Below, in pieces: positions 1 through 30,742 of a stretch of 38,108 nucleotides of DNA. The notes under the pieces are model-generated. The model had not been told where the DNA came from, searched no databases, and saw only the letters and a program-made list of their open reading frames with translations. This DNA is from a virus. Taxonomy: Duplodnaviria > Heunggongvirae > Uroviricota > Caudoviricetes. Numbering within the stretch: the stretch's first letter is position 1; each line of letters begins with the position of its first letter. Made by a program: the position numbers and the translations under genes. Location: positions 1 to 38,108 of the IMG/VR virus record IMGVR_UViG_2563366933_000009. One strand, written 5' to 3'.

Positions 1-94
1 CTTGAGTCTTGAGTCTTGAGTCTTGAGTCTTGAGTCTTGAGTCTTGAGTCTTGAGTCTTGAGTCTTGAGTCTTGAGTCTTGAGTCTTGAGTCTT
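1..94. repeat. Tandem heptanucleotide repeat (CTTGAGT) x13 plus partial unit, running to the window edge
   Basis: Direct reading: 13 perfect CTTGAGT units at 1-91 followed by CTT; the array may continue upstream of the window. Confidence 0.95.
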
Positions 95-252: not shown

Positions 253-3198
253 TTAGTGCTTCCCTTCTATTAAGTCTAACCTAGCTTTTATTCTTTCTAT
301 TTCTCTGCGCTGCCATGCTGCCTCGATATAGAATAAGAGATCAGGTCTGACCCCCCATCTAGATCCTGCTGGCGTTATTTCAACGCGCTCAATGATGTCT
401 TCCATTACCATCACTGGATTATCATCCTCATCAACAATGATGCTCCCGTCATTATCAGTCAGCGGCATTTCCCTTTGGCCAGTAATGACGTCATCATATA
501 CTGCGGGATAATCGTCATAGCAAAGAAAGGCATAGCGGCATGTTGTGCTTTCTTCTTCCATGAGTCCGTGAGAAATAAGAACATCACGAAGTTGCTGCGC
601 GATTACACCATGATGTATCCTCGCCCCTTCTTCCCCCTTTATAGCGACAGCGTTCAGCCATTTATAAGCGATATACCTGACGTCACCCCAGGCATCCAGC
701 AATGCTTCGTCAGGAGAGACCGGCTCTGTCTTTAATGTTCCGTCACTGGTAACCACAGGATTGGAGCCAAGATAAACTGTCGAGAACCTGTTTCCCGGAC
801 CACCAAGAGCATTTACATTATCAAGATAAGGTTTAACATCTCCGTTCTCAAAAAGATGTTCGAGTGCGTTATATACCGCGCGACGTGGAGTACTGCTTCC
901 GGAACCATGCAACGTTATCATTGCACCATCTGCTGAAGACGTTGTTTCACCGCCGCTAACGATTAATCTCTGAGCGGTAACATCATCAGACGGTACTTTC
1001 TTCGCAATAATGGCGTAATTACCCTCAAGTTTGACTTCCGCGCGAACTTGTCCTGATGTACCTGCATGGACAGTCAGTGACTGGACGGCAACATCATCTG
1101 TGAAATCAACGGGTACAGGAACCGTCCTCACGCCTGACGTCGACATAAAAGTAGGAAGCGTTCTGTTAGGAGTGGCTCCGTAGACAAAATCCCTTGAAAC
1201 AAATTCTTCCTGTTTAATTTTCACCCTGAAACAATACAAATCAGCCGGGTGACCATCGTGAAAATAAGGATATTTTCTGTTGTTATCCCCTATGCTCCAT
1301 GGGTTTAGAAAGTCTTCCCCACCGAAAATGTAGTACAGCCAGTTGTCTTTGATACAAACTGAACCAACACCAACCGCAGAGTTAACTATTCCGCCCTGAT
1401 AAATCTGATCAGTAACATTAACCCACTCTACATTATCCAGACTCCACTCATTGACGTTAACTCTGGTCATAAATGTTCTTGGATAGTTTCCTGCATAACG
1501 GTTATCAGGTTCTCCTCCTTCCCACTCACCAAATGCGCGCTCACTGCCAAAAATAATCAGCTCATCGCCAACTTTGGCAAAAGGAAGGTTTGAGTGATGA
1601 ACATTATTTGGGAAGCGAAGAGAATTCCATGATGTACCTAAATCAGAGCTTCTGTGCAATGAACTACCGGGTTGAGTACTTAATGTCCCCCTGGTCGTCA
1701 GATACAGAATGCCATCATAATATTTTACACATGGCTCAGATGCATTCGCCTCATATTCTGCAGGTATGCGTCTGCGAACAAAGCTACCAGGAGAACCGAA
1801 AGCATCAGAGAAATAGAGTATCCCAAGCTCGCGTGGACCAATATCACCATTATGGTAGCCAACAGCAAAACTGTTATCGCTAATCGTCGCAAAACTGTGA
1901 ATCTCAGTAACAGGAGTGCTTCCGTCAACAAAAGAAGGAATAGTTCCAAGACTGGTTTTTCTCCATGGTGACGAGTGAAATGATGTACCAAAACTCCAGT
2001 ATCTACCCTCGTTATTCTGATCCACATCCTGGGTATTTTGCGTCGTAACTGTAAAAGTATTTTTATCAATAACAGTAGTCACCGTCATATTCCCGGTAAC
2101 ACCTGTAACACCAGAGTTTGAGAAGTTGACAAAATCACCAGCAAATAATCCGTGATCAGTAATGCGAATATAAGCGACTTGCTGATTTGCTGCTTTCGTT
2201 ATACCACCATAAACGCGAAGGCTGCGACTCATTGGGCGATCCCACAACTCTGCAACCTGCAGTTTATTTCCGCTCACAGTCCGCGTCTCAATTACAGCAA
2301 AAAGGCGATTTCTGACAACCCCCATACTCATGCAGTGATAGTTAACTGTGGGATAGTTTTCATGTAAATCTGTAAGCCATTCCGGCGTTGTCCAGGTCTT
2401 CCCGTCATCTCCTGAGCGAACCCATGCAACATGGAGGTTATTTACACCATGACGGTCTCCAGCCATAAAAGGCGCATAGATGACATTGTCATATACAAAC
2501 GTTTTATCCTGCGTCCAGGCGTTGTACCACGGTGTATCTGTAATTTTAAATAACTCTCCCTGGATAAAATCTTCAGAAGCATAAAAAAGAGGCTGGCCCG
2601 GTATTCTCTCAAATAAAAAACGAGCATTTTTAAATCGACTGACATCTGGAAGAGTTGATACTTTAAAAGTAAGCCCTCGCCCATCTATCTTTTCACCACC
2701 TGTTGCAACAGAAAGTAATTCTGATAGAGCTGATGTATCATCATGAACACCATCACCAATAGCCCCCCAACCTCTTACATCATAACTGTCTCTCCATCTT
2801 GCTATCTGAAGTTTTGGGTATTTATTCGCTCCATCTGGGTCTTCTAATTGCTGCCGTAACTGATCAGGATCATACTTCAGCACATTAGGAAAATAGAACT
2901 GCTGTGTACCATACGCATCATAAACAGCCATAGAATGGCCTTGCACGGTTACGAATTTGGCAATCTGTCCGTTATATACCGGATATCCAGCAGCGTTAAT
3001 GATTATTGGTTGCGAAACAGGAATGTGAGAACCGTCTTCGTTCTCTACATAAACCTGAATCTGGTTTTCAGGATTTACAGGGTCAGTGTCAATTTTACCG
3101 ATATAAATTTTGCCATTGGCTACGGCTTTAAAAGAACGAGCCATAGTGAAGAGTTGCGAAGGCATACTTACTACAACATTGGCTGTAATGTCTGTCAT
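253..3198 (-). CDS. Tailspike protein: P22 gp9-type N-terminal head-binding domain fused to a different beta-helix receptor-binding/depolymerase domain and a C-terminal intramolecular-chaperone-like domain
   Basis: 981-aa ORF; N-terminus [11 protein letters not shown]...[12 protein letters not shown]...VLKYDPDQ matches the P22 tailspike head-binding domain; [14 protein letters not shown] motif typical of pectate-lyase-like tailspikes; Shine-Dalgarno TGGAG upstream. Confidence 0.9.
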
Positions 3199-3330
3199 TT
3201 AATTTGCTCCAGATACAAGGAATCGCCGCAGCATGGCTACGGTTGGCATTTATTACATACCGAAACGGTACGATTGTTGATTTGTACAGTAGGTTTTACG
3301 ATGCCATTCCACCCATTTGGTGAGGCATTG

Positions 3331-3588
3331 ATGATGTACAGCAAATACGATGAGGCGCAGTTCCACTTGAGGCTTACACACGAGTTGCACGCTAAGATTA
3401 AGCAGCGTGCAAAAATGAATAACAGGTCTATCAATTCCGAAATTGTGGCTACGATGGAAGAATCACTCTCCAAACCATCACCTGTAAGCGGGTATCGTGA
3501 TGAAGAAGAGAGGCTGGCCTCATTAATCTCGGAACGAGTAAAAGAAGTTGCGGCTGAAATTCTAAGGAAAGAAAAAACCCGCGATTAA
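3331..3588 (+). CDS. mnt: Mnt-like ribbon-helix-helix repressor (Arc/MetJ family)
   Basis: Internal ATG of track ORF 2935-3588 preceded by GGTGAGG; product (85 aa) has NNRSINSEIV RHH motif and an SKPSPVSGYRDEEERLA segment resembling P22 Mnt. The upstream part of the track ORF is antisense to the tailspike 5' end and was discarded. Confidence 0.75.
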   Translation: MMYSKYDEAQFHLRLTHELHAKIKQRAKMNNRSINSEIVATMEESLSKPSPVSGYRDEEERLASLISERVKEVAAEILRKEKTRD

Positions 3589-3603
3589 GCGGGTTTAGTT
3601 TTC
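3572..3603. terminator. Bidirectional intrinsic terminator between convergent mnt-like and antirepressor genes
   Basis: Stem AACCCGC/GCGGGTT with 6-nt loop, flanked by an A-run on one side and a T-rich tract on the other. Confidence 0.55.
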
Positions 3604-3614
3604 ATTATAAAATG

Positions 3615-4343
3615 TTACGCCACATTTGAGCCATGTAGCAGGTGTTGTAGTGCTTTAACGCCTTCAGAATTGTAACGGAACGCCTCTACCTGTTTGCTGG
3701 AATGCGCCGATTTATCCAGGAAGAACTTCCCGTACTGCTCAGTTTTGAGGTTGTTTGCGTTAGCAATGCGACCAATCTTGTTGGCCGTTACTCCAAGCTG
3801 CTCTGCAACCTCCCCTGCTGAGTAGTAATGCTCTTCTATTGCCGGAAGAGGTATTGCATTAAAACCAACAAGCGGGTTGATTATACTTGCTGCCGCTGTC
3901 TGCTTTGCCTCAGGCGCAAGATTTGGCATCAGATCGAACAGATTGGTAACAGCTTCAACCGTCATTTTCAATGTTCGCGCTTGACGATACTCAACAAGTC
4001 CACTCGCTGATTTACCGCTTTTAATGTGCGCTTCTTGCATACTTTCAAGTTGGTCTACCAGTGAGCGGCGAACGGCTTTTGACTCGCGAGCGGCAACTCG
4101 CAATGCTTGCTTGATTGACATCTCAATGATAACCATCGAAGTTTTGTTCGCTTTTTGCACTACACTTTTTGTGTAGTGCTCTCCATCCAATTCATCTTCA
4201 ATTTTCTCGATGAATTTGTTATTACGAACCTCCGGCTCACCGCACTGTCTACGAGCCTGATTTACCATCTCAAGCAGGCGCTGGCTGTCAATGGTTTTAT
4301 CCGTGACAACGGATCCGATGTTTGCTACATTCTTAAAAGTCAT
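3615..4343 (-). CDS. Antirepressor-like protein, KilAC-type C-terminal domain
   Basis: Start taken at internal Met (MTFKNVANIG) with AAGGAA Shine-Dalgarno; C-terminal region has the HTH-like motif seen in phage antirepressor KilAC domains; lies in the ant position of an immI-like cluster. Confidence 0.65.
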   Translation of the reverse strand: MTFKNVANIGSVVTDKTIDSQRLLEMVNQARRQCGEPEVRNNKFIEKIEDELDGEHYTKSVVQKANKTSMVIIEMSIKQALRVAARESKAVRRSLVDQLESMQEAHIKSGKSASGLVEYRQARTLKMTVEAVTNLFDLMPNLAPEAKQTAAASIINPLVGFNAIPLPAIEEHYYSAGEVAEQLGVTANKIGRIANANNLKTEQYGKFFLDKSAHSSKQVEAFRYNSEGVKALQHLLHGSNVA

Positions 4344-4412
4344 TAGGCATTCCTTATGTGGTAGTAAGGGTGTGACATAGGCCGCCAGCAGCACACTGGC
4401 GGTTTTCTTTTT
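4338..4412 (+). ncRNA. Putative sar-like antisense RNA covering the translation start of the KilAC antirepressor gene
   Basis: Plus-strand promoter-like GTGACA -17 bp- TACATT at about 4303-4331 inside the antirepressor 5' coding region, and a plus-strand intrinsic terminator about 75 nt downstream; no plus-strand gene is served by this terminator. Confidence 0.3.
4382..4412 (+). terminator. Intrinsic terminator on the plus strand (antisense to the ant genes)
   Basis: Stem CCGCCAG/CTGGCGG with 7-nt loop followed by TTTTCTTTTT. Confidence 0.55.
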
Positions 4413-4431
4413 GCGCCGTCCGGCGCACCAA

Positions 4432-5070
4432 TCAATGAATCCATTCCTCGCCGCGCAGTTTTGCCAGCATTGGCTGAGCGTTCTTTACGACAAAATTGTT
4501 GGTATCAAGATTCTTCATTTCACGAAGAAGTGATTTCTTGGTTTCTTCTGACATATAGCGAGTCTCATATGCGATATCGTAAATCCTTCCTGAAAGCTCA
4601 GAACAAATTTGCTTCATTCCTGGGTAGATGTGTTTGCACATTTGTTGACTCTTCTCCATCCACAATTGTAAGTAGCAGAGATTAACCAGTTCTTCGTCAG
4701 TAAACTGTTTTGCAATCGGTGAGCATTCTGCCTGCCGATCCAAAATATCCAGCACCCAGCGGCGGAACTCTTTGGCCTTGGGCGTAGAAGCAAACATCGC
4801 CACCAAGTGAGCGCCTCGGAGCGAGTAAACTCTGACCGATTTGTTACGTAAGCTATTGTTTATTCCGTTGACCTTCATATTGAGGGTCAATGACATTGAG
4901 TCGGAAAATTCGTCAGCATTACGGGCATAAATTTGGCTGATGGCATCAGTTTTTTTATAGCCGAGAGCCTTAGCTAGTTCGGCGGAGGTGAACCAGATAG
5001 ACCCGCCCTCTGTTACAGGGTTAAAAGTGAATCCTTGGAAGTTATAATCTGATTTTGCTACAATATTCAT
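4432..5070 (-). CDS. Bro-N domain antirepressor-like protein
   Basis: Start taken at MNIVAKSDYNFQGF with AAGGAAA Shine-Dalgarno 5 nt upstream; N-terminal motif FQGFTF...IWFTSAELAKALGY is typical of Bro-N domains; immediately downstream of the arc-like gene. Confidence 0.7.
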   Translation of the reverse strand: MNIVAKSDYNFQGFTFNPVTEGGSIWFTSAELAKALGYKKTDAISQIYARNADEFSDSMSLTLNMKVNGINNSLRNKSVRVYSLRGAHLVAMFASTPKAKEFRRWVLDILDRQAECSPIAKQFTDEELVNLCYLQLWMEKSQQMCKHIYPGMKQICSELSGRIYDIAYETRYMSEETKKSLLREMKNLDTNNFVVKNAQPMLAKLRGEEWIH

Positions 5071-5143
5071 GTTAGTTTCCTTGCATACGGTTACTGACAT
5101 AGAGGCCCGGTTTGTGTTCGCGCACTGCCGGGCTTCACTATTT

Positions 5144-5320
5144 TTACTGGGCATTAGCTCTTTCCTCTCTCAGGCTTTTAGCCAGTCGCTGCACAATCGC
5201 AGAGTTGATAGAAATTCCATCCATTTCAGCTACGCGTCTGATCTCCTCCTTCATTCGCGCTGGCAAACGAAGCTGGAAACTCTGACTTTTACGACCACTG
5301 TAAAGAACATCGCTCATCAT
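5144..5320 (-). CDS. arc: Arc-like ribbon-helix-helix repressor
   Basis: 58-aa product from internal Met with GGAGA Shine-Dalgarno; FQLRLPARMKEEIRRVAEMDGISINSAIVQRL matches the Arc/Mnt RHH fold pattern; divergent from an mnt-like gene as in P22 immI. Confidence 0.7.
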   Translation of the reverse strand: MMSDVLYSGRKSQSFQLRLPARMKEEIRRVAEMDGISINSAIVQRLAKSLREERANAQ

Positions 5321-5336
5321 CAATATCTCCGTCATA

Positions 5337-5357
5337 ATGACATCACCATGATGTCAT
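5337..5357. promoter_or_regulatory. 21-bp operator-like palindrome in the arc / mnt-like divergent intergenic region
   Basis: ATGACATCA-CCA-TGATGTCAT, perfect 9-bp inverted arms; a second inverted pair CATTATG ... CATAATG lies just downstream. Confidence 0.5.
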
Positions 5358-5440
5358 GACACCATTATGATGCCATTGCTCATAATGTCAATATGATGCT
5401 ACTGTGTTTTTTATTGCTCATATGCCTTGCGAATAAGAAA

Positions 5441-5692
5441 ATGTCAGAAAAAGACGAATCAAATTTCATAGAAAGATTTACGGTTAGAATGCCTGACGGC
5501 ATGCGTAGTGCTATTGCGGAAAGGGCTAAACGAAACGGTCGATCTATGAACTCAGAGATAGTTCAAATTCTTGAGGATGCGTTATCATATGACGTCTCAT
5601 CAGTAGACAAATCATTAGATCTTAAACAAATAAAATCTTTACTTGATAAAATTTCCAACGAGTTACTGGATAGAATCCCAAAAGACACATAA
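5441..5692 (+). CDS. Second Mnt/Arc-family RHH repressor paralog
   Basis: Internal Met start (MSEKDESNFIERFTVRMPDGMRSAIAERAKRNGRSMNSEIVQILEDAL) with RHH signature RxxNGRSMNSEIV; divergent from arc. Confidence 0.6.
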   Translation: MSEKDESNFIERFTVRMPDGMRSAIAERAKRNGRSMNSEIVQILEDALSYDVSSVDKSLDLKQIKSLLDKISNELLDRIPKDT

Positions 5693-5738
5693 CAAAACAT
5701 TATCATCCGGTGTTCTGCTCAAAACTAAGGAGGTTGGT

Positions 5739-6059
5739 GTGTATATATCGCTATCTACCATTTTTTTCATCTGCTTAGCTATTTGGCTTTTAAGAATATG
5801 GCAGGATTGCTCTGTCAGCCATGCTGCTGCGGTGAGAAATAAAAACGCCCTCATAAAAGAAGCTGAAAACGTTGTTTTATCAATGGATCACCTTTCATGG
5901 ACCGAGATGACTACAGGGCAACAAGAGGTTTATGAGTGTGCGATTGAGCGGTTAAGGCTGCTTAAATCGTACAAAAAGAACCACGCACCCGACTCATTCC
6001 CATTCCTGAAAGAATGGCCGAGATGGTATGACCCGAGAAAAGCAACCATCAACCGCTAA
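5739..6059 (+). CDS. Small single-pass membrane protein, paralog of the cI-linked ORF at 30739-31053; function unknown
   Basis: GTG start 6 nt after AAGGAGG; hydrophobic N-terminus ISLSTIFFICLAIWLL; shares a YECAIERL-centred region and a W-P motif with the ORF at 30739-31053. Confidence 0.6.
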   Translation: MYISLSTIFFICLAIWLLRIWQDCSVSHAAAVRNKNALIKEAENVVLSMDHLSWTEMTTGQQEVYECAIERLRLLKSYKKNHAPDSFPFLKEWPRWYDPRKATINR

Positions 6060-6067
6060 CCAACTTT

Positions 6068-8074
6068 TTACTGCCGGGCTTTCTCACTTGAAGCCTGAAT
6101 TAGAGGTGTAAGAGTTTCAGATACCCGTCTGATCGCTCTATCATAAGCAGTACTTCCTTTTGGTGTGTTTGCTAACTTTAGTAATGCGTTCCTCATCGCG
6201 CGTGACTCATAGCCCCTGCCAGCCATACCGATACCAGCTCCAACTGCCGCAACTTTTGCAAACATTGGATTTGTAACAGACGCAAGAGCTGTTATCAGCG
6301 CTGCTGGACCAGCTACCATTTGCCCTGTTAGTGGGCTTGCGGCAGCAGTAGCTGCCTGTCTAGTGGAATCAAGATATTTCATTATCCCATCAAGCTGTTT
6401 CCCATGCTCTCCTCTGAAGAACGTCTCAGCCTGCTTCCGATTCCTTTTCATTTCATTAATAAACTTCTCAACGCTAAGCTTTCCTGAATCGCTTGTCGCC
6501 TTATCCATTGCACGCTGAACAAGTGCTGCTCTAGCATTTTGACGCCCACTATCATCAAGCAATCGATAAAGTTGCGCCCTTTCCGCTGGGCTTTGGCTGA
6601 ATACTAGTTTAGTGACATCTTCTGGCGTTGTTTTACCACTCTGAATAGCTTTTTGGACACGTGTATTGCTCATCATGTCGTTGAACTTTGCCCAAGAACG
6701 ATCAACACGCGACATGTTTTGCGCTTCCTTCGCACCTAGTTTTGCGCCAACCGCTTTTTTCATGTCTGTTGTGTATGCGTTATAAACAGACTGCGCAGCT
6801 TTCTCCAGCGTATCTCTATCGACCTCGTCAGGTGCTGCCATAAAGCGCTTACGTAAGTTTGTACGGTTTTCTCTAGCTAATTGCAGGTTATTTGGACCGC
6901 TGGTGATGTCATTTCTAAACTGTTGAAGGACAGAAACAGCTGAGCGGTCTTGCGATACTCCTGGGCGAGTTAACTTGGAAATCTGCTCATCAATTGCTTT
7001 CACTGTTCCAGTGATGTCAACAGGAGTATCCCCCATCAAACTGATGATCCTGTCGTACCGCTTGCCAGCAGCCTGAATAAATTGCTGCTGACCACGAGTA
7101 GCTGATTGGTAAAGTTGTGCGTCAGATATTCCACCAACATTATCGCTAAATGTTCTAACTAAATCTTCCCTGGCCTTTTGCTGTGCATTTCTTATCCCAC
7201 CTGTTCCGGCTATTGGGATTCGCTCAGCCATAGCTCGTGCTTGCTTACCAATATTTGTTCCCGGTTCCACAAGATCTGTTGTCATCAGTGGCAAGTTGTT
7301 CTGCTTGGCAAAGTCAATCTGAGCTTGTTTTTCAGGAGCTATCTTACCCATAGCAGAACGAGACACTGCGCTTGCGGTGTTTTCTACACCCTTCAGTACC
7401 CCACCAAGACCAGCAGAAATTGCAGTTTGAACTGGATTAACATTCTCACCGCCAGCGATCTTAGTGGCCCCCTGTAAAGCTAAATCAGTAGCGCCTGATT
7501 TTAGTGTTGCACCTACAACAGACGCAGCTCTACCTGCTGGAGTGAATGCAAGAGCATTTGCCAAGAATGACGTTATATCCTGCGGTGACAAACCAGGCTT
7601 GTTAAGTGCATATTCCCCTGAAGGAAGGGTGACTATGGAATTTCCCTTCTCATCCTTCCGGATTTTCCCGCCAATACTTTGCAGTATTTTCTCCTGTGAA
7701 GCGTCGGAACCAAATAGCTGCCCCAATCCAGCACGCAGCGCATCAGTGCTTAAGCTATTAAGCTCTGGAGCAGACCCAACATTTTGCAGTCTCTCCATTT
7801 CTGGTGTCATTCGGCTTTCACCGGTAACGGCATCGCGCATTGCAGCACCTAAAACAGCCCCTTGCTCAGCAGAGCGATCTAGTCCTTCCTTCTGCTGAGT
7901 GGCAAGCTGTGCATATCCTGATGCAAGTGAGTTGTCTGCTGGCGATTGCTGAACACCTTGTTGTGTTGGTGCTGACTGACCAGCAAAATACTCATCAATG
8001 GCGGTGCCAATATCTTCGGTGCTCGTACCATCAGGGAAGGTAAATGTCTTACCGTTTGCAGTAACTTTCATCAT
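6068..8074 (-). CDS. Ejection (injection) protein, P22 gp16-like
   Basis: 668-aa ORF at the gp16 position in a P22-type gene order; Gly/Ala-rich composition; overlaps the upstream gene stop. Confidence 0.8.
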
Positions 8075-28271: not shown

Positions 28272-29136
28272 GAACTTTCAGGTAGGTATTATCGTTAAGC
28301 AGGAAATCAAATCCCTTTTTGTGCCAGACAGTTCCGCGTTGATGGTTTGGGCGCTCTTCGAACATCCATCGGCAATTTTCGCCTACGTAGCTCAAATAAT
28401 TTCTCCAGTCCTGCATCGTGAAACCATGCCCGTCAAGCTGTCGGGTTATCACTCCGGCTTTGCGCCAGAACGTTCGGATCTGGTTTTTACGCTTGTCATT
28501 CAGTGCGCGGATTCTTGGCGCTTCAGGAAGGATTTCGTGGTAAGCATCGACAACATCCTGACAGCTAACGGAAGGTTTTTTCTTGTCAGACTTTTTGTCT
28601 GCTGTGGCACTCTCTAATACGTCAGTATTAGAGATATTATTTATATTATTGTTTATGGACAACCGTTGGACAACCGTTGGACAATCTCCGCTGAGAGCCG
28701 CGCCATTACTGGTGTTTGCGTTGGACAACCGTTGGACAACCGTTGGACAATTTTTTGCCTGAAAATCGTCATATTTAACGATTGTAAACAGGCTAAATTT
28801 CTTCCCCATCGAGCAAATATTAAGCATACCTTTCGACTCAAAAGTCCGTAATAAGCTCCGAACTTTGTTGTCGGGGATGAATGTTTCTCTGACCAGCGAC
28901 GGGCGTCCAGTTATCATCTGACCGCGATCAACAGTTATCGGACCGATATCCGTATTGACGACAGTAGATTCGTGATTAGCCTTGAGGATTAAGTGAAGCC
29001 AAAGATGTACTGCCTGAGAGTCCTTATAGAGCCTGCTGTCCATAAACTGGCGGTGTATAGAGACATACCCCATACTGGATGCCTCCTGATGTTGTACAGG
29101 GTTATGCCTGTAATCAGCTAACTTAACGACGCCCAT
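28246..29136 (-). CDS. Replication initiator (lambda O / P22 gp18 functional analogue) with ori iterons inside the gene
   Basis: 296-aa ORF upstream of the helicase; contains direct 11-bp iterons that translate to the repeated peptide PTVVQRLS. Confidence 0.8.
   Translation of the reverse strand: MGVVKLADYRHNPVQHQEASSMGYVSIHRQFMDSRLYKDSQAVHLWLHLILKANHESTVVNTDIGPITVDRGQMITGRPSLVRETFIPDNKVRSLLRTFESKGMLNICSMGKKFSLFTIVKYDDFQAKNCPTVVQRLSNANTSNGAALSGDCPTVVQRLSINNNINNISNTDVLESATADKKSDKKKPSVSCQDVVDAYHEILPEAPRIRALNDKRKNQIRTFWRKAGVITRQLDGHGFTMQDWRNYLSYVGENCRWMFEERPNHQRGTVWHKKGFDFLLNDNTYLKVREGEHDDR
28657..28750. repeat. Replication origin iterons: five direct copies of an 11-bp unit (CCGTTGGACAA) in two clusters, followed by an AT-rich tract
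   Basis: Two copies plus a partial copy at about 28657-28690 and three at about 28718-28750; AT-rich run at about 28751-28800. Confidence 0.8.
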
Positions 29137-29318: not shown

Positions 29319-29600
29319 TCAGGCCTCGAAGAATTCGCCGTTCTTCGGGGCTTTTTCTTTTGTCAGGTAATTGGCAAGCCGCTTAGTCAGCTCAGCCATT
29401 TCATCGTCTTCGATTCCGTATTCCAGAACAGCCAGCATCATGCTTACCTGCGAGAAGAAACCATTCTTCCATCGGCTTACCTGATATTCAGGAACCCCCA
29501 TTGCTCGAGCGAATGTCTTCTGCCCCATCAGTGCCAGTTTGTTCAGCAAGGCTGACTCGATGCGAGCCGCTTTCTTGCTTTTAGTTGCAATAGTACCCAT
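29319..29600 (-). CDS. cII: CII-like lysogeny establishment activator
   Basis: 93 aa; RIESALLNKLA...SRWK...MLAVLEYG matches lambda CII. Confidence 0.9.
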   Translation of the reverse strand: MGTIATKSKKAARIESALLNKLALMGQKTFARAMGVPEYQVSRWKNGFFSQVSMMLAVLEYGIEDDEMAELTKRLANYLTKEKAPKNGEFFEA

Positions 29601-30055: not shown

Positions 30056-30742
30056 ATGGATAAATACGAACAAAGACGACTAAGGCTGATAGAGATAAGA
30101 GACCGATTCTGTAATGGAAAGGCCTCAGAGTTGGCTCGTCGAATAGAAAGGGAACCATCATACGTTTCCAGAATGCTGTATCCGGAAGGAAAAAGCGGAA
30201 AAAAACGCATTGCTGACGATATGATGGAGCTAATTGAAAAATCTTTTAATCTCCCACGCGGATGGATGGACATGCTTGCAGATGGTAAAGCTGGAGCTAC
30301 GGACCATCTTGAGTTTGCGGGTAACGTTCGTGCGGGTTTTGTTCCGGTAATTGGTGAAGCCGTTTTGGGAGTTGATGGCTCAGTGGATATGATTGAATTC
30401 AGATCCGGTTGGTTAAGCATCTACAGCGGCGATAAAGATGCTTACGGTCTGAAGGTTAAGGGTGACAGCATGTGGCCAAGGATTCAGTCAGGAGAATATG
30501 TTGTTATTGAACCAAATACGCCAGTACATCCAGGTGATGAAGTCTTTGTAAGGACCAAAGACGGTCACAACATGATAAAGATCATGAACAAAACAAGAGA
30601 CGGTGATTATCAGTTTAGTAGCATAAACAGTGATCACCGCCCAATCACTCTTCCTGTTGAAGAAGTTGATAAAATGCATTTTGTTTCAGCTATTGTGAAA
30701 CACACCAGGTACGTAGACCAGGACGATCTGCCAAAAGTTTGA
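30056..30742 (+). CDS. cI: CI-like prophage repressor (HTH plus S24 LexA-like autopeptidase domain)
   Basis: 228 aa; C-terminal GDSMWPRI...GEYVVIEP...GDEVFVR...KIM signature of S24 peptidase-type repressors. Confidence 0.9.
   Translation: MDKYEQRRLRLIEIRDRFCNGKASELARRIEREPSYVSRMLYPEGKSGKKRIADDMMELIEKSFNLPRGWMDMLADGKAGATDHLEFAGNVRAGFVPVIGEAVLGVDGSVDMIEFRSGWLSIYSGDKDAYGLKVKGDSMWPRIQSGEYVVIEPNTPVHPGDEVFVRTKDGHNMIKIMNKTRDGDYQFSSINSDHRPITLPVEEVDKMHFVSAIVKHTRYVDQDDLPKV

What the first reader, a model, noticed from the sequence alone, without database searches (positions are those of the whole stretch)
3199..5440. Rearranged immI-like island: two Mnt-like repressors, Arc, and an antirepressor split into Bro-N and KilAC ORFs
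P22 immI is mnt / arc-ant. Here arc is followed by a Bro-N ORF, then an 88-bp spacer, then a KilAC-domain ORF. One Mnt-like gene is convergent with the ant genes next to the tailspike, and a second Mnt-like gene is divergent from arc. This implies a different regulatory logic for antirepressor control.
Basis: partly seen in the sequence, partly recalled or inferred. Interest (0 to 1): 0.6.

Follow-up and report, generated by a model that had tools for sequence, protein, structure and literature searches.

The report
Composite P22-type antirepressor control region
This part of a P22-like E. coli K1 phage is a common but unstudied variant of the P22 "immunity I" region, with two complete antirepressor-family genes in one operon and two Mnt-like repressors on its flanks; it is not a broken antirepressor gene.

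Summary
The "split antirepressor" reading is not supported.

- **Ant-1** (4432-5070, -) is a complete Bro-N + P22AR_C protein.
- **ORF-X** (3615-4343, -) is a full-length member of a separate ~242-aa family. It has no Pfam KilAC match, a Rha-related N-domain and a winged-helix C-domain. More than 2,000 homologs exist.
- **The arc/Ant-1 spacer** holds a clear homolog of P22 sar antisense RNA.
- **The 88-bp spacer** holds a second, analogous unit: an antisense promoter inside the first ORF-X codons plus an antisense terminator. This unit is conserved in four genera.
- **RHH-B** (5441-5692, +) sits where P22 mnt sits, next to Pant/Pmnt-like promoters with tandem 21-bp palindromes.
- **RHH-A** (3331-3588, +) is an orphan P22-type Mnt with its own promoter and palindrome. 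It is under strong purifying selection and is probably left over from a second immI module that relatives still carry whole.

The whole arrangement recurs in at least 23 complete E. coli genomes and many viral contigs. It is a new variant of a known kind, of modest interest. Every binding and RNA function proposed here is inferred.

The parts
253..3198 (-). Tailspike gene (context): P22 head-binding domain + K1 endosialidase + S74 chaperone. Its start is divergent from RHH-A.
   Evidence: Pfam Head_binding 1.5e-66, End_beta_propel 3e-233, Peptidase_S74
3257..3271 (.). Candidate RHH-A operator: near-palindrome ATACCGAAACGGTAC (TACCG-AAA-CGGTA), 3 nt upstream of the -35 of P(RHH-A)
   Evidence: Only exact copy in the window. 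Relatives whose Mnt has a P22-like beta-strand carry AAGACCACTGTGGTCTT, similar to P22 Omnt, at the same spot. Binding is inferred.
3274..3302 (+). Weak promoter-like site for RHH-A: TTGTTG-17-TACGAT
   Evidence: Read from the sequence. It parallels P22 Pmnt TTGAGA-17-TATCAT and L093 TTGTGG-17-TATGAT. It scores below the threshold of the scanner.
3331..3588 (+). RHH-A: orphan P22-type Mnt repressor (85 aa)
   Evidence: Pfam Arc 3.2e-15. 41% identical to P22 Mnt over full length. Its C-terminal half matches all but one residue (E/D) of the corresponding part of the Mnt of a complete P22-type immI in L099. dN 0.036 / dS 1.02 against the VSe13 homolog.
3575..3596 (.). Bidirectional intrinsic-terminator-like hairpin between the convergent RHH-A and ORF-X genes
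   Evidence: Detected on both strands
3615..4343 (-). ORF-X: second antirepressor-family protein (242 aa), with a Rha-related N-domain and a winged-helix C-domain
   Evidence: Full-length match to phrog_1726 'anti-repressor', 7e-101. 2,109 homologs, the top 120 all ~241-250 aa. Domain-shuffling partners include pRha, ORF6N, KilA-N, Bro-N and ANT. 12 of 26 relatives hit Phage_pRha. Foldseek matches phage antirepressor/KilAC-annotated models at E 1e-9 to 1e-4.
4303..4331 (+). Antisense promoter-like site inside ORF-X codons 5-14: GTGACA-17-(TG)TACATT
   Evidence: The same motif is present in Proteus, Dryocola and Intestinirhabdus loci. It is retained where the encoded amino acids differ. Third-codon-position diversity is lowest in the first 45 nt of the gene.
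4338..4413 (+). Predicted sar-like antisense RNA 2 (~76 nt), complementary to the ORF-X Shine-Dalgarno sequence and start codon. It fills most of the '88-bp spacer'.
   Evidence: Promoter plus + strand terminator 4379-4405 followed by TCTTTTT. Fold -25.1 kcal/mol, z -1.9. The terminator is conserved, with compensatory changes in L006. Not detected by a model built from sar1, so it is an analog and not a shown homolog. Transcription is not shown.
4432..5070 (-). Ant-1: complete antirepressor-family protein (212 aa), Bro-N + P22AR_C
   Evidence: Pfam Bro-N 1.4e-10 and P22_AR_C 3.5e-12. phrog_245 'anti-repressor Ant' 2e-49. The C-domain is 29% identical to the P22 Ant C-domain. The start at 5070 is supported by alignment with the P22 ant start.
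5035..5064 (+). Psar-like promoter inside the first Ant-1 codons: TTGGAA-18-(TG)TACAAT
   Evidence: It aligns with the annotated P22 Psar and is conserved in 40 distinct sequences.
5071..5145 (+). sar1: homolog of P22 sar antisense RNA, lying between arc and Ant-1
   Evidence: Aligns with P22 sar. Same two-hairpin fold: -33.3 kcal/mol, z -5.6, against P22 -29.5, z -5.3. Four terminator-stem pairs show compensatory changes across 16 sequences including P22.
5144..5320 (-). Arc-type small RHH repressor (58 aa), first gene of the ant operon
   Evidence: Pfam Arc 8.7e-12; alignment with P22 Arc
5337..5376 (.). Two tandem 21-bp dyad sites at and just downstream of the Pant-like promoter. O1 5337-5357 is ATGACATCAccaTGATGTCAT (perfect). 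O2 5356-5376 has 2 mismatches and overlaps the -10. A degenerate third copy lies at about 5382-5402.
   Evidence: In loci with the same Arc beta-strand but a different RHH-B beta-strand, this palindrome is replaced by TTGGTTCTAGAACCAA. The sites are therefore assigned to RHH-B by inference.
5364..5391 (-). Pant-like promoter: TTGACA-16-CATAAT (11 of 12)
5370..5397 (+). Pmnt-like promoter for RHH-B: ATGCCA-16-TATGAT (9 of 12), overlapping Pant back to back
5441..5692 (+). RHH-B: Mnt-analog repressor (83 aa), divergent from arc, in the position of P22 mnt
   Evidence: Pfam Arc 1.6e-17. 33% identical to P22 Mnt, with a different C-terminal tail.
5739..6059 (+). Small membrane-protein ORF downstream of RHH-B (context), in the position of P22 orf59a/sieA
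   Evidence: phrog_10450, function unknown, 7e-52; P22 map

Best explanation
The region is a composite P22-type immI ('ant moron') made of two modules.

**Module 1** is a complete anti-immunity operon.
- RHH-B and the arc operon are transcribed divergently from overlapping Pmnt-like and Pant-like promoters.
- The operon runs arc, sar1, Ant-1, sar2, ORF-X and ends at a bidirectional terminator.
- Proposed working, by analogy with P22: in the lysogen RHH-B occupies the tandem 21-bp dyads O1/O2 and shuts off Pant.
- On infection or derepression, Pant fires and makes Arc, Ant-1 and ORF-X. Arc then turns Pant down.
- Each antirepressor mRNA is additionally throttled by its own antisense RNA, which covers its ribosome-binding site.
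- Ant-1 and ORF-X would then bind CI/C2-type repressors, such as the S24 repressor at 30056-30742 or those of co-resident prophages, and inactivate them.

**Module 2** is an orphan P22-type mnt (RHH-A) with its own weak promoter and a small palindrome.
- It is probably what remains of a second mnt-arc-ant module that some relatives still carry intact at the same place.
- It is kept functional. It most likely autoregulates, and it may repress matching Pant promoters in trans or modulate late transcription entering the tailspike gene.

**Shown here:** the genes, domains, synteny, sar1 homology, conservation of the sar2 promoter and terminator, covariation of palindromes with repressor beta-strands, and purifying selection on RHH-A.

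**Inferred:** all protein-DNA binding, transcription of the antisense RNAs, and antirepressor activity.
For: - **Position and synteny with P22 immI:**
- **RHH fold of all three small proteins:**
- **Promoters and terminators:**
- **sar1 homology, fold and covariation:**
- **sar2 unit:** found in the window and in three other genera. Mosaic boundaries fall just after the sar1 and sar2 T-tracts. Synonymous-site diversity is lowest in the first 45 nt of ORF-X.
- **Completeness of Ant-1 and ORF-X:**
- **Tandem pair across genera:** arc / Bro-N Ant / ORF-X with a divergent RHH is conserved in Proteus, Dryocola and Intestinirhabdus. Census.
- **Operator assignment to RHH-B:**
- **RHH-A as orphan Mnt:**
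- **Published background:** this region is hypervariable in P22-like phages, and mnt-only versions exist (PMC2629481; PMC8022706).
- **Late transcription direction:** the Q-type antiterminator and the late genes lie on the same strand, so late transcription must cross this region to reach the tailspike.
Against: - No experiment or transcriptome was available.
- The promoter and terminator scans are consensus matches whose counts are not far above shuffled expectation: 10 against 5.7±2.5, and 5 against 3.3±1.8.
- sar2 folds only marginally better than shuffles (z -1.9). Only its terminator hairpin is conserved, and its covariation comes from a single locus. A covariance model built from sar1 does not find it.
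- No Rfam family matches either RNA.
- The Arc operator could not be identified.
- The RHH-A palindrome is short (5-3-5), has a one-base variant in many loci, and its promoter is weak.
- ORF-X has no characterised homolog. 'Anti-repressor' is an annotation, not a tested function.
Confidence: 0.7

Rival explanations
1. Split gene: Ant-1 and ORF-X are the N- and C-terminal halves of one antirepressor, separated by a frameshift, a sequencing error or decay.
For: The ORF-X reading frame stays open for 47 codons upstream of its ATG and overlaps the end of Ant-1. The two genes are adjacent in most loci.
Against: - Ant-1 already has a complete C-terminal P22AR_C domain.
- ORF-X aligns from residue 1 with a 264-position family profile and with more than 100 homologs of the same length.
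- ORF-X has its own N-domain, which elsewhere is fused to ANT domains.
- Each gene occurs without the other.
- The spacer is conserved in dozens of independent assemblies.
- There is no XXXYYYZ slippery site.
- An open frame of ~29 codons across the spacer is expected by chance about one time in four (own estimate).
Confidence: 0.03
2. Two-subunit antirepressor: Ant-1 and ORF-X are separate proteins that act only together, as reported for two-protein antirepressors of other phages (N15 AntA/AntB, P1 Ant1/Ant2; from my own knowledge, not checked here).
For: The tandem pair is conserved across four genera and in 64 of 84 loci. Two relatives of ORF-X carry an AntA/AntB N-domain.
Against: - ORF-X follows at least three unrelated kinds of ant gene: Bro-N/P22AR_C, another Bro-N protein, and P22-type Ant.
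- Ant-1 occurs alone in SPN3UB-like phages.
- Separate antisense units suggest independent dosing.
- The survey is biased towards close relatives.
Confidence: 0.15
3. ORF-X is not an antirepressor but a Rha-like DNA-binding regulator, or a host-directed moron, that merely rides in the ant operon.
For: - The N-domain is related to Phage_pRha in 12 of 26 relatives.
- The C-domain is a winged HTH resembling RacA/MerR DNA-binding domains.
- There is no Pfam ANT match.
- The 'antirepressor' label is annotation only.
Against: - Both domains shuffle with the classic antirepressor domain set: Bro-N, KilA-N, ORF6N, ANT.
- The best structural matches are proteins annotated as antirepressor or KilAC.
- It is co-transcribed with ant and appears to be controlled in the same way as ant.
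Confidence: 0.2
4. The hairpin in the 88-bp spacer is not part of an antisense RNA. It could be a sense-strand attenuator, an mRNA-stability or processing element, or a barrier against stray + strand transcription. The 'promoter' would then be a coding-sequence coincidence.
For: Weak fold z-score. Only the hairpin is conserved. The sar1 model gives no hit. Low diversity in the first codons is also expected from translation-initiation constraints.
Against: - The T-tract follows the stem only on the + strand.
- The -35 and extended -10 persist where the protein sequence changes, and even where the N-domain is swapped (L008).
- The geometry matches P22 Psar/sar.
Confidence: 0.25
5. RHH-A is a non-functional remnant of a degraded immI.
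For: No arc or ant lies next to it. The Pant-like -10 facing the tailspike is degenerate. The phage L paper raises the same possibility for its mnt-like gene.
Against: - dN/dS is about 0.035 against the VSe13 homolog, with dS about 1.
- The gene is intact at 96-100% amino-acid identity in about 50 loci.
- Mnt-only arrangements persist in Sf101, VSe13 and L/ST64T.
- The promoter and palindrome are retained.
Confidence: 0.08

Closest known systems
Salmonella phage P22 immI region (mnt / Pmnt-Pant / arc - sar - ant), between gene 16 and gene 9
   Same: - Same genomic slot.
- A divergent RHH repressor, with Arc as the first gene of the operon.
- Overlapping promoters with dyad operators.
- A sar antisense RNA with a promoter inside the first ant codons and a terminator at the end of arc.
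- The P22AR_C domain in Ant-1.

   Different: - Ant-1 has a Bro-N domain instead of the P22 Ant N-domain.
- There is a second antirepressor-family gene with its own antisense unit.
- Operator sequences and numbers differ: tandem 21-bp dyads instead of one Omnt plus one Oarc.
- An extra mnt lies next to the tailspike.
- RHH-B has a different C-terminal tail from Mnt.
'ant moron' types of P22-like phages (Villafane et al. 2008, PMC2629481), including CUS-3, UTI-1 and APEC-1, and the mnt-only types of ST64T/L and Sf101
   Same: - The hypervariable cassette sits at the same site.
- CUS-3 also has two mnt genes, and its backbone and K1 endosialidase tailspike are those of this window.
- Mnt-only remnants next to the tailspike occur in Sf101, VSe13 and L.
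   Different: - In CUS-3 the two mnt genes are in tandem and divergent from a single ant, and no arc is annotated.
- Here the two Mnt-like genes flank a two-antirepressor operon that does have an arc.
- I found no description of this type in the searchable literature.
Escherichia phage JEP4 (MT740315, Lederbergvirus)
   Same: 95% DNA identity over 3186-5150. Same order: RHH-A, ORF-X, Ant-1.
   Different: - A C2-like HTH repressor and an unrelated small ORF replace RHH-B and Arc.
- An extra 73-aa ORF lies between RHH-A and ORF-X.
- Its annotators labelled ORF-X 'KilA' and Ant-1 'Rha', which the domain searches do not bear out.
Modular phage antirepressor / BRO-type proteins (Bro-N, KilA-N, Rha, ORF6N N-domains combined with ANT/KilAC or P22AR_C C-domains)
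   Same: Both Ant-1 and ORF-X show the N-domain plus C-domain architecture. The domains of ORF-X recombine with members of this set.
   Different: The C-domain of ORF-X is not Pfam ANT/KilAC by sequence. Its N-domain itself falls below the Phage_pRha threshold.

Membership tests
P22-type immI / 'ant moron' | Located between the gene-16 homolog and the tailspike gene of a P22-like late operon | tested here: met
   Gene-16-like ORF at 6068-8074(-) and tailspike at 253-3198(-) flank the region. P22 map. The backbone is CUS-3-like.
P22-type immI / 'ant moron' | Mnt-type RHH repressor transcribed divergently from an arc-ant operon | tested here: met
   RHH-B 5441-5692(+) against arc 5144-5320(-). 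Pfam Arc 63.5 bits. Divergent promoter-like sites.
P22-type immI / 'ant moron' | Arc-type small RHH as the first gene of the operon | tested here: met
   58 aa, Pfam Arc 45.1 bits; aligned with P22 Arc
P22-type immI / 'ant moron' | sar antisense RNA across the ant ribosome-binding site | tested here: met
   5071-5145(+) aligns with P22 sar, has the same fold, and shows compensatory changes. No Rfam family matched.
P22-type immI / 'ant moron' | Repressors bind dyad operators that overlap Pant/Pmnt | not testable with these tools
   Palindromes are present at the expected positions and covary with the RHH-B beta-strand. Binding needs EMSA or footprinting.
P22 Ant (P22_AR_N + P22_AR_C) | Homology over both domains of P22 Ant | tested here: not met
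   Only the C-domain is related: 29% identity over 69 aa, Pfam P22_AR_C. The N-domain is Bro-N.
Bro-N domain proteins | Pfam PF02498 above the gathering score (Ant-1) | tested here: met
   42.1 bits against a 25.6-bit cut-off
ANT / KilAC domain (PF03374) | Sequence match of ORF-X to the ANT profile | tested here: not met
   No match at E<0.1 for ORF-X, and none among 26 relatives at E<1
ANT / KilAC domain (PF03374) | Fold-level resemblance of the ORF-X C-domain | tested here: inconclusive
   The model has pLDDT 68. Foldseek hits to phage proteins annotated antirepressor/KilAC reach E 1e-9 to 1e-4, but TM-scores are low (0.2-0.4). In the PDB only generic winged-HTH matches appear, at E about 0.1.
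Phage_pRha (PF09669) | Match of the ORF-X N-domain | tested here: inconclusive
   The window protein has no match. 12 of 26 full-length relatives match (best 3e-17). In L008 a canonical Rha-type N-domain replaces it.
Arc/Mnt ribbon-helix-helix family | Pfam PF03869 above the gathering score for all three small ORFs | tested here: met
   56.1, 45.1 and 63.5 bits against a 20.4-bit cut-off
Mnt subfamily (RHH + C-terminal oligomerisation tail) | Full-length similarity to P22 Mnt, including the linker and tail | tested here: met
   This result is for RHH-A: 41% identity, SKPSPVSGYR linker, and a tail shared with the P22-type Mnt of L099. For RHH-B the result is inconclusive: the RHH part is similar but the tail is unrelated.
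Pseudogene / frameshifted gene | Truncated domains relative to family profiles, or absence of intact homologs | tested here: not met
   Both proteins cover their profiles end to end and have many same-length homologs

The most novel reading that the evidence does not exclude
The operon encodes two independently dosed antirepressors, each gated by its own cis-antisense RNA. They would be aimed at different repressors: the phage's own S24 repressor and those of co-resident prophages. The orphan Mnt next to the tailspike would be a retained trans-acting guard that silences the Pant of incoming P22-type relatives, or that sets tailspike dosage by blocking late read-through. This would be a layered, multi-target anti-immunity switch built from stacked immI modules.
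Probability: 0.25. Interest if true: 0.55.

Novelty: new variant of a known kind. Interest (0 to 1): 0.38.

Why it matters
P22 immI is a textbook case of layered control: two RHH repressors plus an antisense RNA. Its relatives, however, have mostly only been catalogued as a hypervariable "ant moron". This window shows a version that is widespread in E. coli prophages, including K1-capsule phages of the CUS-3 type.

In this version the P22 scheme has been extended by a second antirepressor cassette that brings its own antisense unit. A Mnt repressor also survives without its operon, under strong purifying selection.

If confirmed, this would give three things:
- a natural example of modular stacking of anti-immunity cassettes, with mosaic joints at the antisense-RNA terminators;
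- a new family of roughly 240-aa antirepressor-like proteins to test;
- a lead on why orphan mnt genes persist next to tailspike genes.

It also corrects database labels: "KilA" and "Rha" in JEP4, and "partition protein ATPase" for Mnt homologs in PHROGs and RefSeq.

Tried and rejected
- **Rfam.** Searches at gathering score and at E≤10 over 3150-5800 gave no meaningful family. The weak RyhB, SymR and leader hits are just the terminator hairpins.
- **sar1 covariance model.** The model found only sar1 in the window and not the sar2 locus. I therefore do not claim sar2 is homologous to sar.
- **sar2 consensus folding.** It recovered only the terminator stem, and the first hairpin is not conserved.
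- **PDB.** The sequence-profile search with the ORF-X family gave only marginal CAP-type HTH hits. Foldseek against the PDB gave only generic winged-HTH hits.
- **AlphaFold database.** The afdb50 library was unavailable.
- **NCBIfam.** It gave nothing useful for any of the six proteins.
- **P22 Rha.** ORF-X shows no pairwise similarity to P22 Rha.
- **Arc operator.** I looked for one shared by loci with identical Arc beta-strands. Only a short common motif (AATGG at a fixed distance from the -35) emerged, too weak to call.
- **Tailspike promoter.** I looked for a strong promoter facing the tailspike in 3199-3330. None passed the scanner, and the Pant-like -10 looks degenerate.
- **Other copies of the palindromes.** A search of the rest of the window found none that was convincing.
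- **Programmed frameshift fusing Ant-1 to ORF-X.** Rejected for lack of a slippery site, and because both proteins are complete.
- **LexA box.** I read the Pant region by eye for one and saw none. This was not formally scanned.

Full report
**What is there.** From low to high coordinates, reading, the region holds:

| Coordinates | Strand | Feature |
|---|---|---|
| 253-3198 | - | tailspike gene |
| 3331-3588 | + | RHH-A, 85-aa ORF |
| 3615-4343 | - | ORF-X, 242-aa ORF |
| 4432-5070 | - | Ant-1, 212-aa ORF |
| 5144-5320 | - | Arc, 58-aa ORF |
| 5441-5692 | + | RHH-B, 83-aa ORF |
| 5739-6059 | + | small membrane ORF |
| 6068-8074 | - | gene-16-like ejection protein |

- All three small proteins match Pfam Arc (PF03869) well above its cut-off.
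- The tailspike combines a P22 head-binding domain with a K1 endosialidase and an S74 chaperone.
- The backbone is about 95% identical to CUS-3, phiv205-1 and other E. coli Lederbergvirus phages.
- The window also carries an S24-type repressor, CII, N, a Q-type antiterminator and DnaB. It is therefore a complete lambdoid P22-like genome.
- The spacer between Ant-1 and ORF-X is exactly 88 bp.

**The antirepressor is not split.**
- Ant-1 has both a Bro-N domain (E 1.4e-10) and a complete P22AR_C domain (profile 5-72 of 73, E 3.5e-12).
- Its C-domain is 29% identical to the C-domain of P22 Ant.
- ORF-X has no Pfam ANT/KilAC match.
- ORF-X covers the whole 264-position profile of phrog_1726 "anti-repressor" (7e-101).
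- A search of 5.8 billion proteins found 2,109 homologs. The best 120 are all about 241-250 aa, from E. coli, Salmonella, Serratia, Morganella, Proteus and Pantoea.
- The exhaustive search of cluster representatives shows that ORF-X is itself modular.
- Its C-domain (about residues 110-240) is found behind Phage_pRha, ORF6N, KilA-N and Bro-N domains. Its N-domain (about residues 14-110) is found in front of genuine ANT/KilAC domains.
- Twelve of 26 full-length relatives match Phage_pRha in the N-domain, and none matches ANT.
- An AlphaFold model of moderate quality (pLDDT 68) shows a β-α-α-β-β-α N-domain and a winged helix-turn-helix C-domain.
- Its best matches among predicted viral structures are proteins annotated as antirepressor or KilAC (E 1e-9 to 1e-4, low TM-scores). 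In the PDB only generic winged-HTH domains appear.
- "KilAC" is therefore at best a loose fold-level description.
- Each gene occurs without the other: SPN3UB-like Salmonella phages have only Ant-1, and Klebsiella phage phiKp_30 has only RHH-A plus ORF-X.
- ORF-X also follows other kinds of ant gene: a true P22-type Ant in L029 and a different Bro-N protein in L093.
- The ORF-X frame happens to stay open for 47 codons upstream of its ATG. There is no slippery heptamer, and both proteins are complete.

**The spacers are antisense-RNA units.** P22 carries sar, a 70-nt antisense RNA. Its promoter lies in the first ant codons and its terminator lies at the end of arc (annotation).

*sar1 (arc / Ant-1 spacer).*
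- The spacer aligns with that P22 segment.
- Its + strand (5071 to about 5145) folds into the same two hairpins: -33.3 kcal/mol, z -5.6, against -29.5, z -5.3 for P22.
- A Psar-like extended -10 promoter lies at 5035-5064.
- Across 40 distinct sequences from related loci the promoter and both hairpins persist.
- In a 16-sequence alignment that includes P22, four terminator-stem pairs show compensatory changes.

*sar2 (the 88-bp spacer).*
- It has the same design: a + strand promoter GTGACA-17-(TG)TACATT inside ORF-X codons 5-14 (4303-4331), and a + strand terminator at 4379-4405 followed by TCTTTTT.
- This predicts an RNA of about 76 nt that covers the ORF-X Shine-Dalgarno sequence and start codon.
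- The same promoter-plus-terminator pair is present in Proteus faecis, Dryocola and Intestinirhabdus loci.
- It persists where the encoded residues differ.
- It also persists in L008, where the ORF-X N-domain has been replaced by a Rha-type domain after the first ~14 codons.
- In L006 the terminator stem differs by compensatory changes.
- Third-codon-position diversity is lowest in the first 45 nt of ORF-X: 0.07, against 0.11-0.39 elsewhere in the gene.
- Sequence immediately beyond the T-tracts of both units switches between unrelated contexts. Each antisense unit therefore travels with its downstream ant gene.

*Caveats.*
- sar2 folds only marginally better than shuffles (z -1.9).
- Only its terminator is conserved.
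- A covariance model built from sar1 does not find it.
- No Rfam family matches either unit.
- sar2 is therefore an analog predicted from sequence, not a demonstrated RNA.

**The arc / RHH-B control region.**
- A near-consensus promoter, TTGACA-16-CATAAT, points into arc (5391-5364). A weaker one, ATGCCA-16-TATGAT, points into RHH-B (5370-5397).
- A perfect 21-bp palindrome, ATGACATCAccaTGATGTCAT (5337-5357), lies just downstream of the -10, where P22 has Omnt.
- A second copy with two mismatches (5356-5376) overlaps the -10, and a degenerate third copy follows.
- Some related loci have the same Arc beta-strand (QSFQLRLP) but a different RHH-B beta-strand (DRFNIRLP instead of ERFTVRMP). In these the palindrome at that position is replaced by TTGGTTCTAGAACCAA.
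- The dyads therefore track RHH-B, and I assign them to it by inference.
- I could not identify the Arc operator.

**RHH-A is an orphan P22-type Mnt.**
- It is 41% identical to P22 Mnt along its whole length.
- In IMG/VR locus L099 the gene at the same place, convergent with ORF-X, is a Mnt with the N-terminus of P22 Mnt and a C-terminal half that differs from RHH-A's at a single residue. It is followed by the P22 Oarc/Omnt operators, arc, a P22-type ant and the tailspike. L038 and L039 are similar.
- Relatives thus carry two complete immI modules in tandem, whereas the window keeps only the mnt of the second.
- Mnt-only arrangements next to the tailspike are known in Sf101, VSe13 and L/ST64T.
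- The RHH-A/tailspike intergenic region retains a Pmnt-like TTGTTG-17-TACGAT (3274-3302). Just upstream lies a small palindrome, TACCG-AAA-CGGTA (3257-3271).
- In loci L093-L095 the Mnt has a P22-like beta-strand, and the same spot holds AAGACCACTGTGGTCTT, close to P22 Omnt AGGTCCACGGTGGACCT.
- RHH-A is under strong purifying selection (dN 0.036, dS 1.02 against the VSe13 homolog). It is therefore not a decaying remnant.
- What it controls is unknown. Candidates are autoregulation, trans-repression of matching Pant promoters, and modulation of late read-through into the tailspike gene.
- The last idea echoes a suggestion made for P22 in PMC2629481.

**Distribution and literature.**
- The full arrangement occurs at 94-98% identity in at least 23 of 5,426 complete E. 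coli genomes. PGAP annotates it there as three "Arc family DNA-binding proteins", a "P22AR C-terminal domain-containing protein" and a hypothetical protein.
- Among 84 surveyed loci with full-length ORF-X:
  - 64 have a Bro-N Ant immediately upstream.
  - 10 have a P22-type Ant immediately upstream.
  - 49 have the convergent RHH-A, followed by a tailspike in all but one.
- This survey is biased towards close relatives.
- In JEP4 and many viral contigs the same Ant-1/ORF-X cassette sits under a C2-like HTH repressor instead of RHH-B and Arc.
- Villafane et al. 2008 describe this slot as a hypervariable "ant moron", with ten types in sixteen genomes. CUS-3 itself has two tandem mnt genes.
- I found no paper that describes this type, its tandem antirepressors or a second antisense unit.

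**Verdict.**
- The headline interpretation, a split antirepressor, is wrong.
- The claim of a different regulatory logic is half right.
- The region is a composite of a complete, extended P22-style anti-immunity operon and an orphan, functional mnt.
- It is a new variant of a well-known kind, common in nature and uncharacterised, and of modest interest.
- The more interesting points all await experiment: dual antisense gating, the function of ORF-X, and the role of the orphan Mnt.

Noticed in passing
window 1-94: The window opens inside a perfect heptanucleotide array, (CTTGAGT) x 13.4, the reverse complement of AAGACTC. In CUS-3 this is annotated as the neuO poly-psi phase-variation repeat downstream of the endosialidase tailspike. 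The copy number is unknown because the array is cut by the window start.
   Followed up: partly
window 253-3198 (-): The tailspike is a chimera: a P22 head-binding domain, K1 endosialidase domains and an S74 intramolecular chaperone. Only its first ~100 nt and the 45 nt upstream are shared with HK620, epsilon34 and others (the 'boundary sequence' of CUS-3).
   Followed up: partly
window 5739-6059 (+): A 106-aa predicted membrane protein lies downstream of RHH-B, in the position of P22 orf59a/sieA. It matches phrog_10450, of unknown function. It is a candidate prophage-expressed moron or exclusion protein.
   Followed up: no
window 29321-29361 (+): A terminator-like hairpin with a U-tract lies on the strand opposite the 3' end of the cII gene (29319-29600, -). 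This is the position of lambda/P22 oop antisense RNA. It turned up as a weak hit of the sar model.
   Followed up: partly
window 28656-28750: Two adjacent sets of perfect 11-nt direct repeats (TGGACAACCGT and CGTTGGACAAC) lie inside the ORF upstream of the DnaB-like helicase gene. They are probably replication-origin iterons.
   Followed up: no
L099 3001-6084; also L038, L039: Some IMG/VR relatives carry two complete immI modules in tandem. An Ant-1/ORF-X cassette is followed by P22-type mnt, Oarc/Omnt, arc and ant, and then the tailspike.
   Followed up: partly
L001 (JEP4) 5164-6078, and many IMG/VR loci without Arc or RHH-B hits: The same sar1 / Ant-1 / sar2 / ORF-X cassette is placed under a C2-like HTH repressor and an unrelated small ORF instead of RHH-B and Arc. 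The joint lies right after the sar1 T-tract.
   Followed up: partly
L008 4001-4705: In Intestinirhabdus the ORF-X homolog keeps the first ~14 codons, which hold the antisense promoter, and the C-domain. Its N-domain is replaced by a canonical Rha-type sequence.
   Followed up: partly
L001 3418-3639, and loci where RHH-A lies ~210 bp further from ORF-X (e.g. L030, L040): About half of the related loci have an extra ~210-bp insert between ORF-X and RHH-A. In JEP4 it is annotated as a 73-aa hypothetical protein. The insert is absent from the window.
   Followed up: no
window 4344-4487 (-): The ORF-X reading frame is open for 47 codons upstream of its ATG and overlaps the end of Ant-1 in another frame. 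There is no slippery site, so this is probably a by-product of the conserved RNA element.
   Followed up: yes
PHROGs phrog_795 / RefSeq NC_002371 mnt: Mnt homologs, including P22 Mnt itself in RefSeq, are labelled 'partition protein ATPase'. This is an evident annotation error that propagates to Sf101 and others.
   Followed up: no
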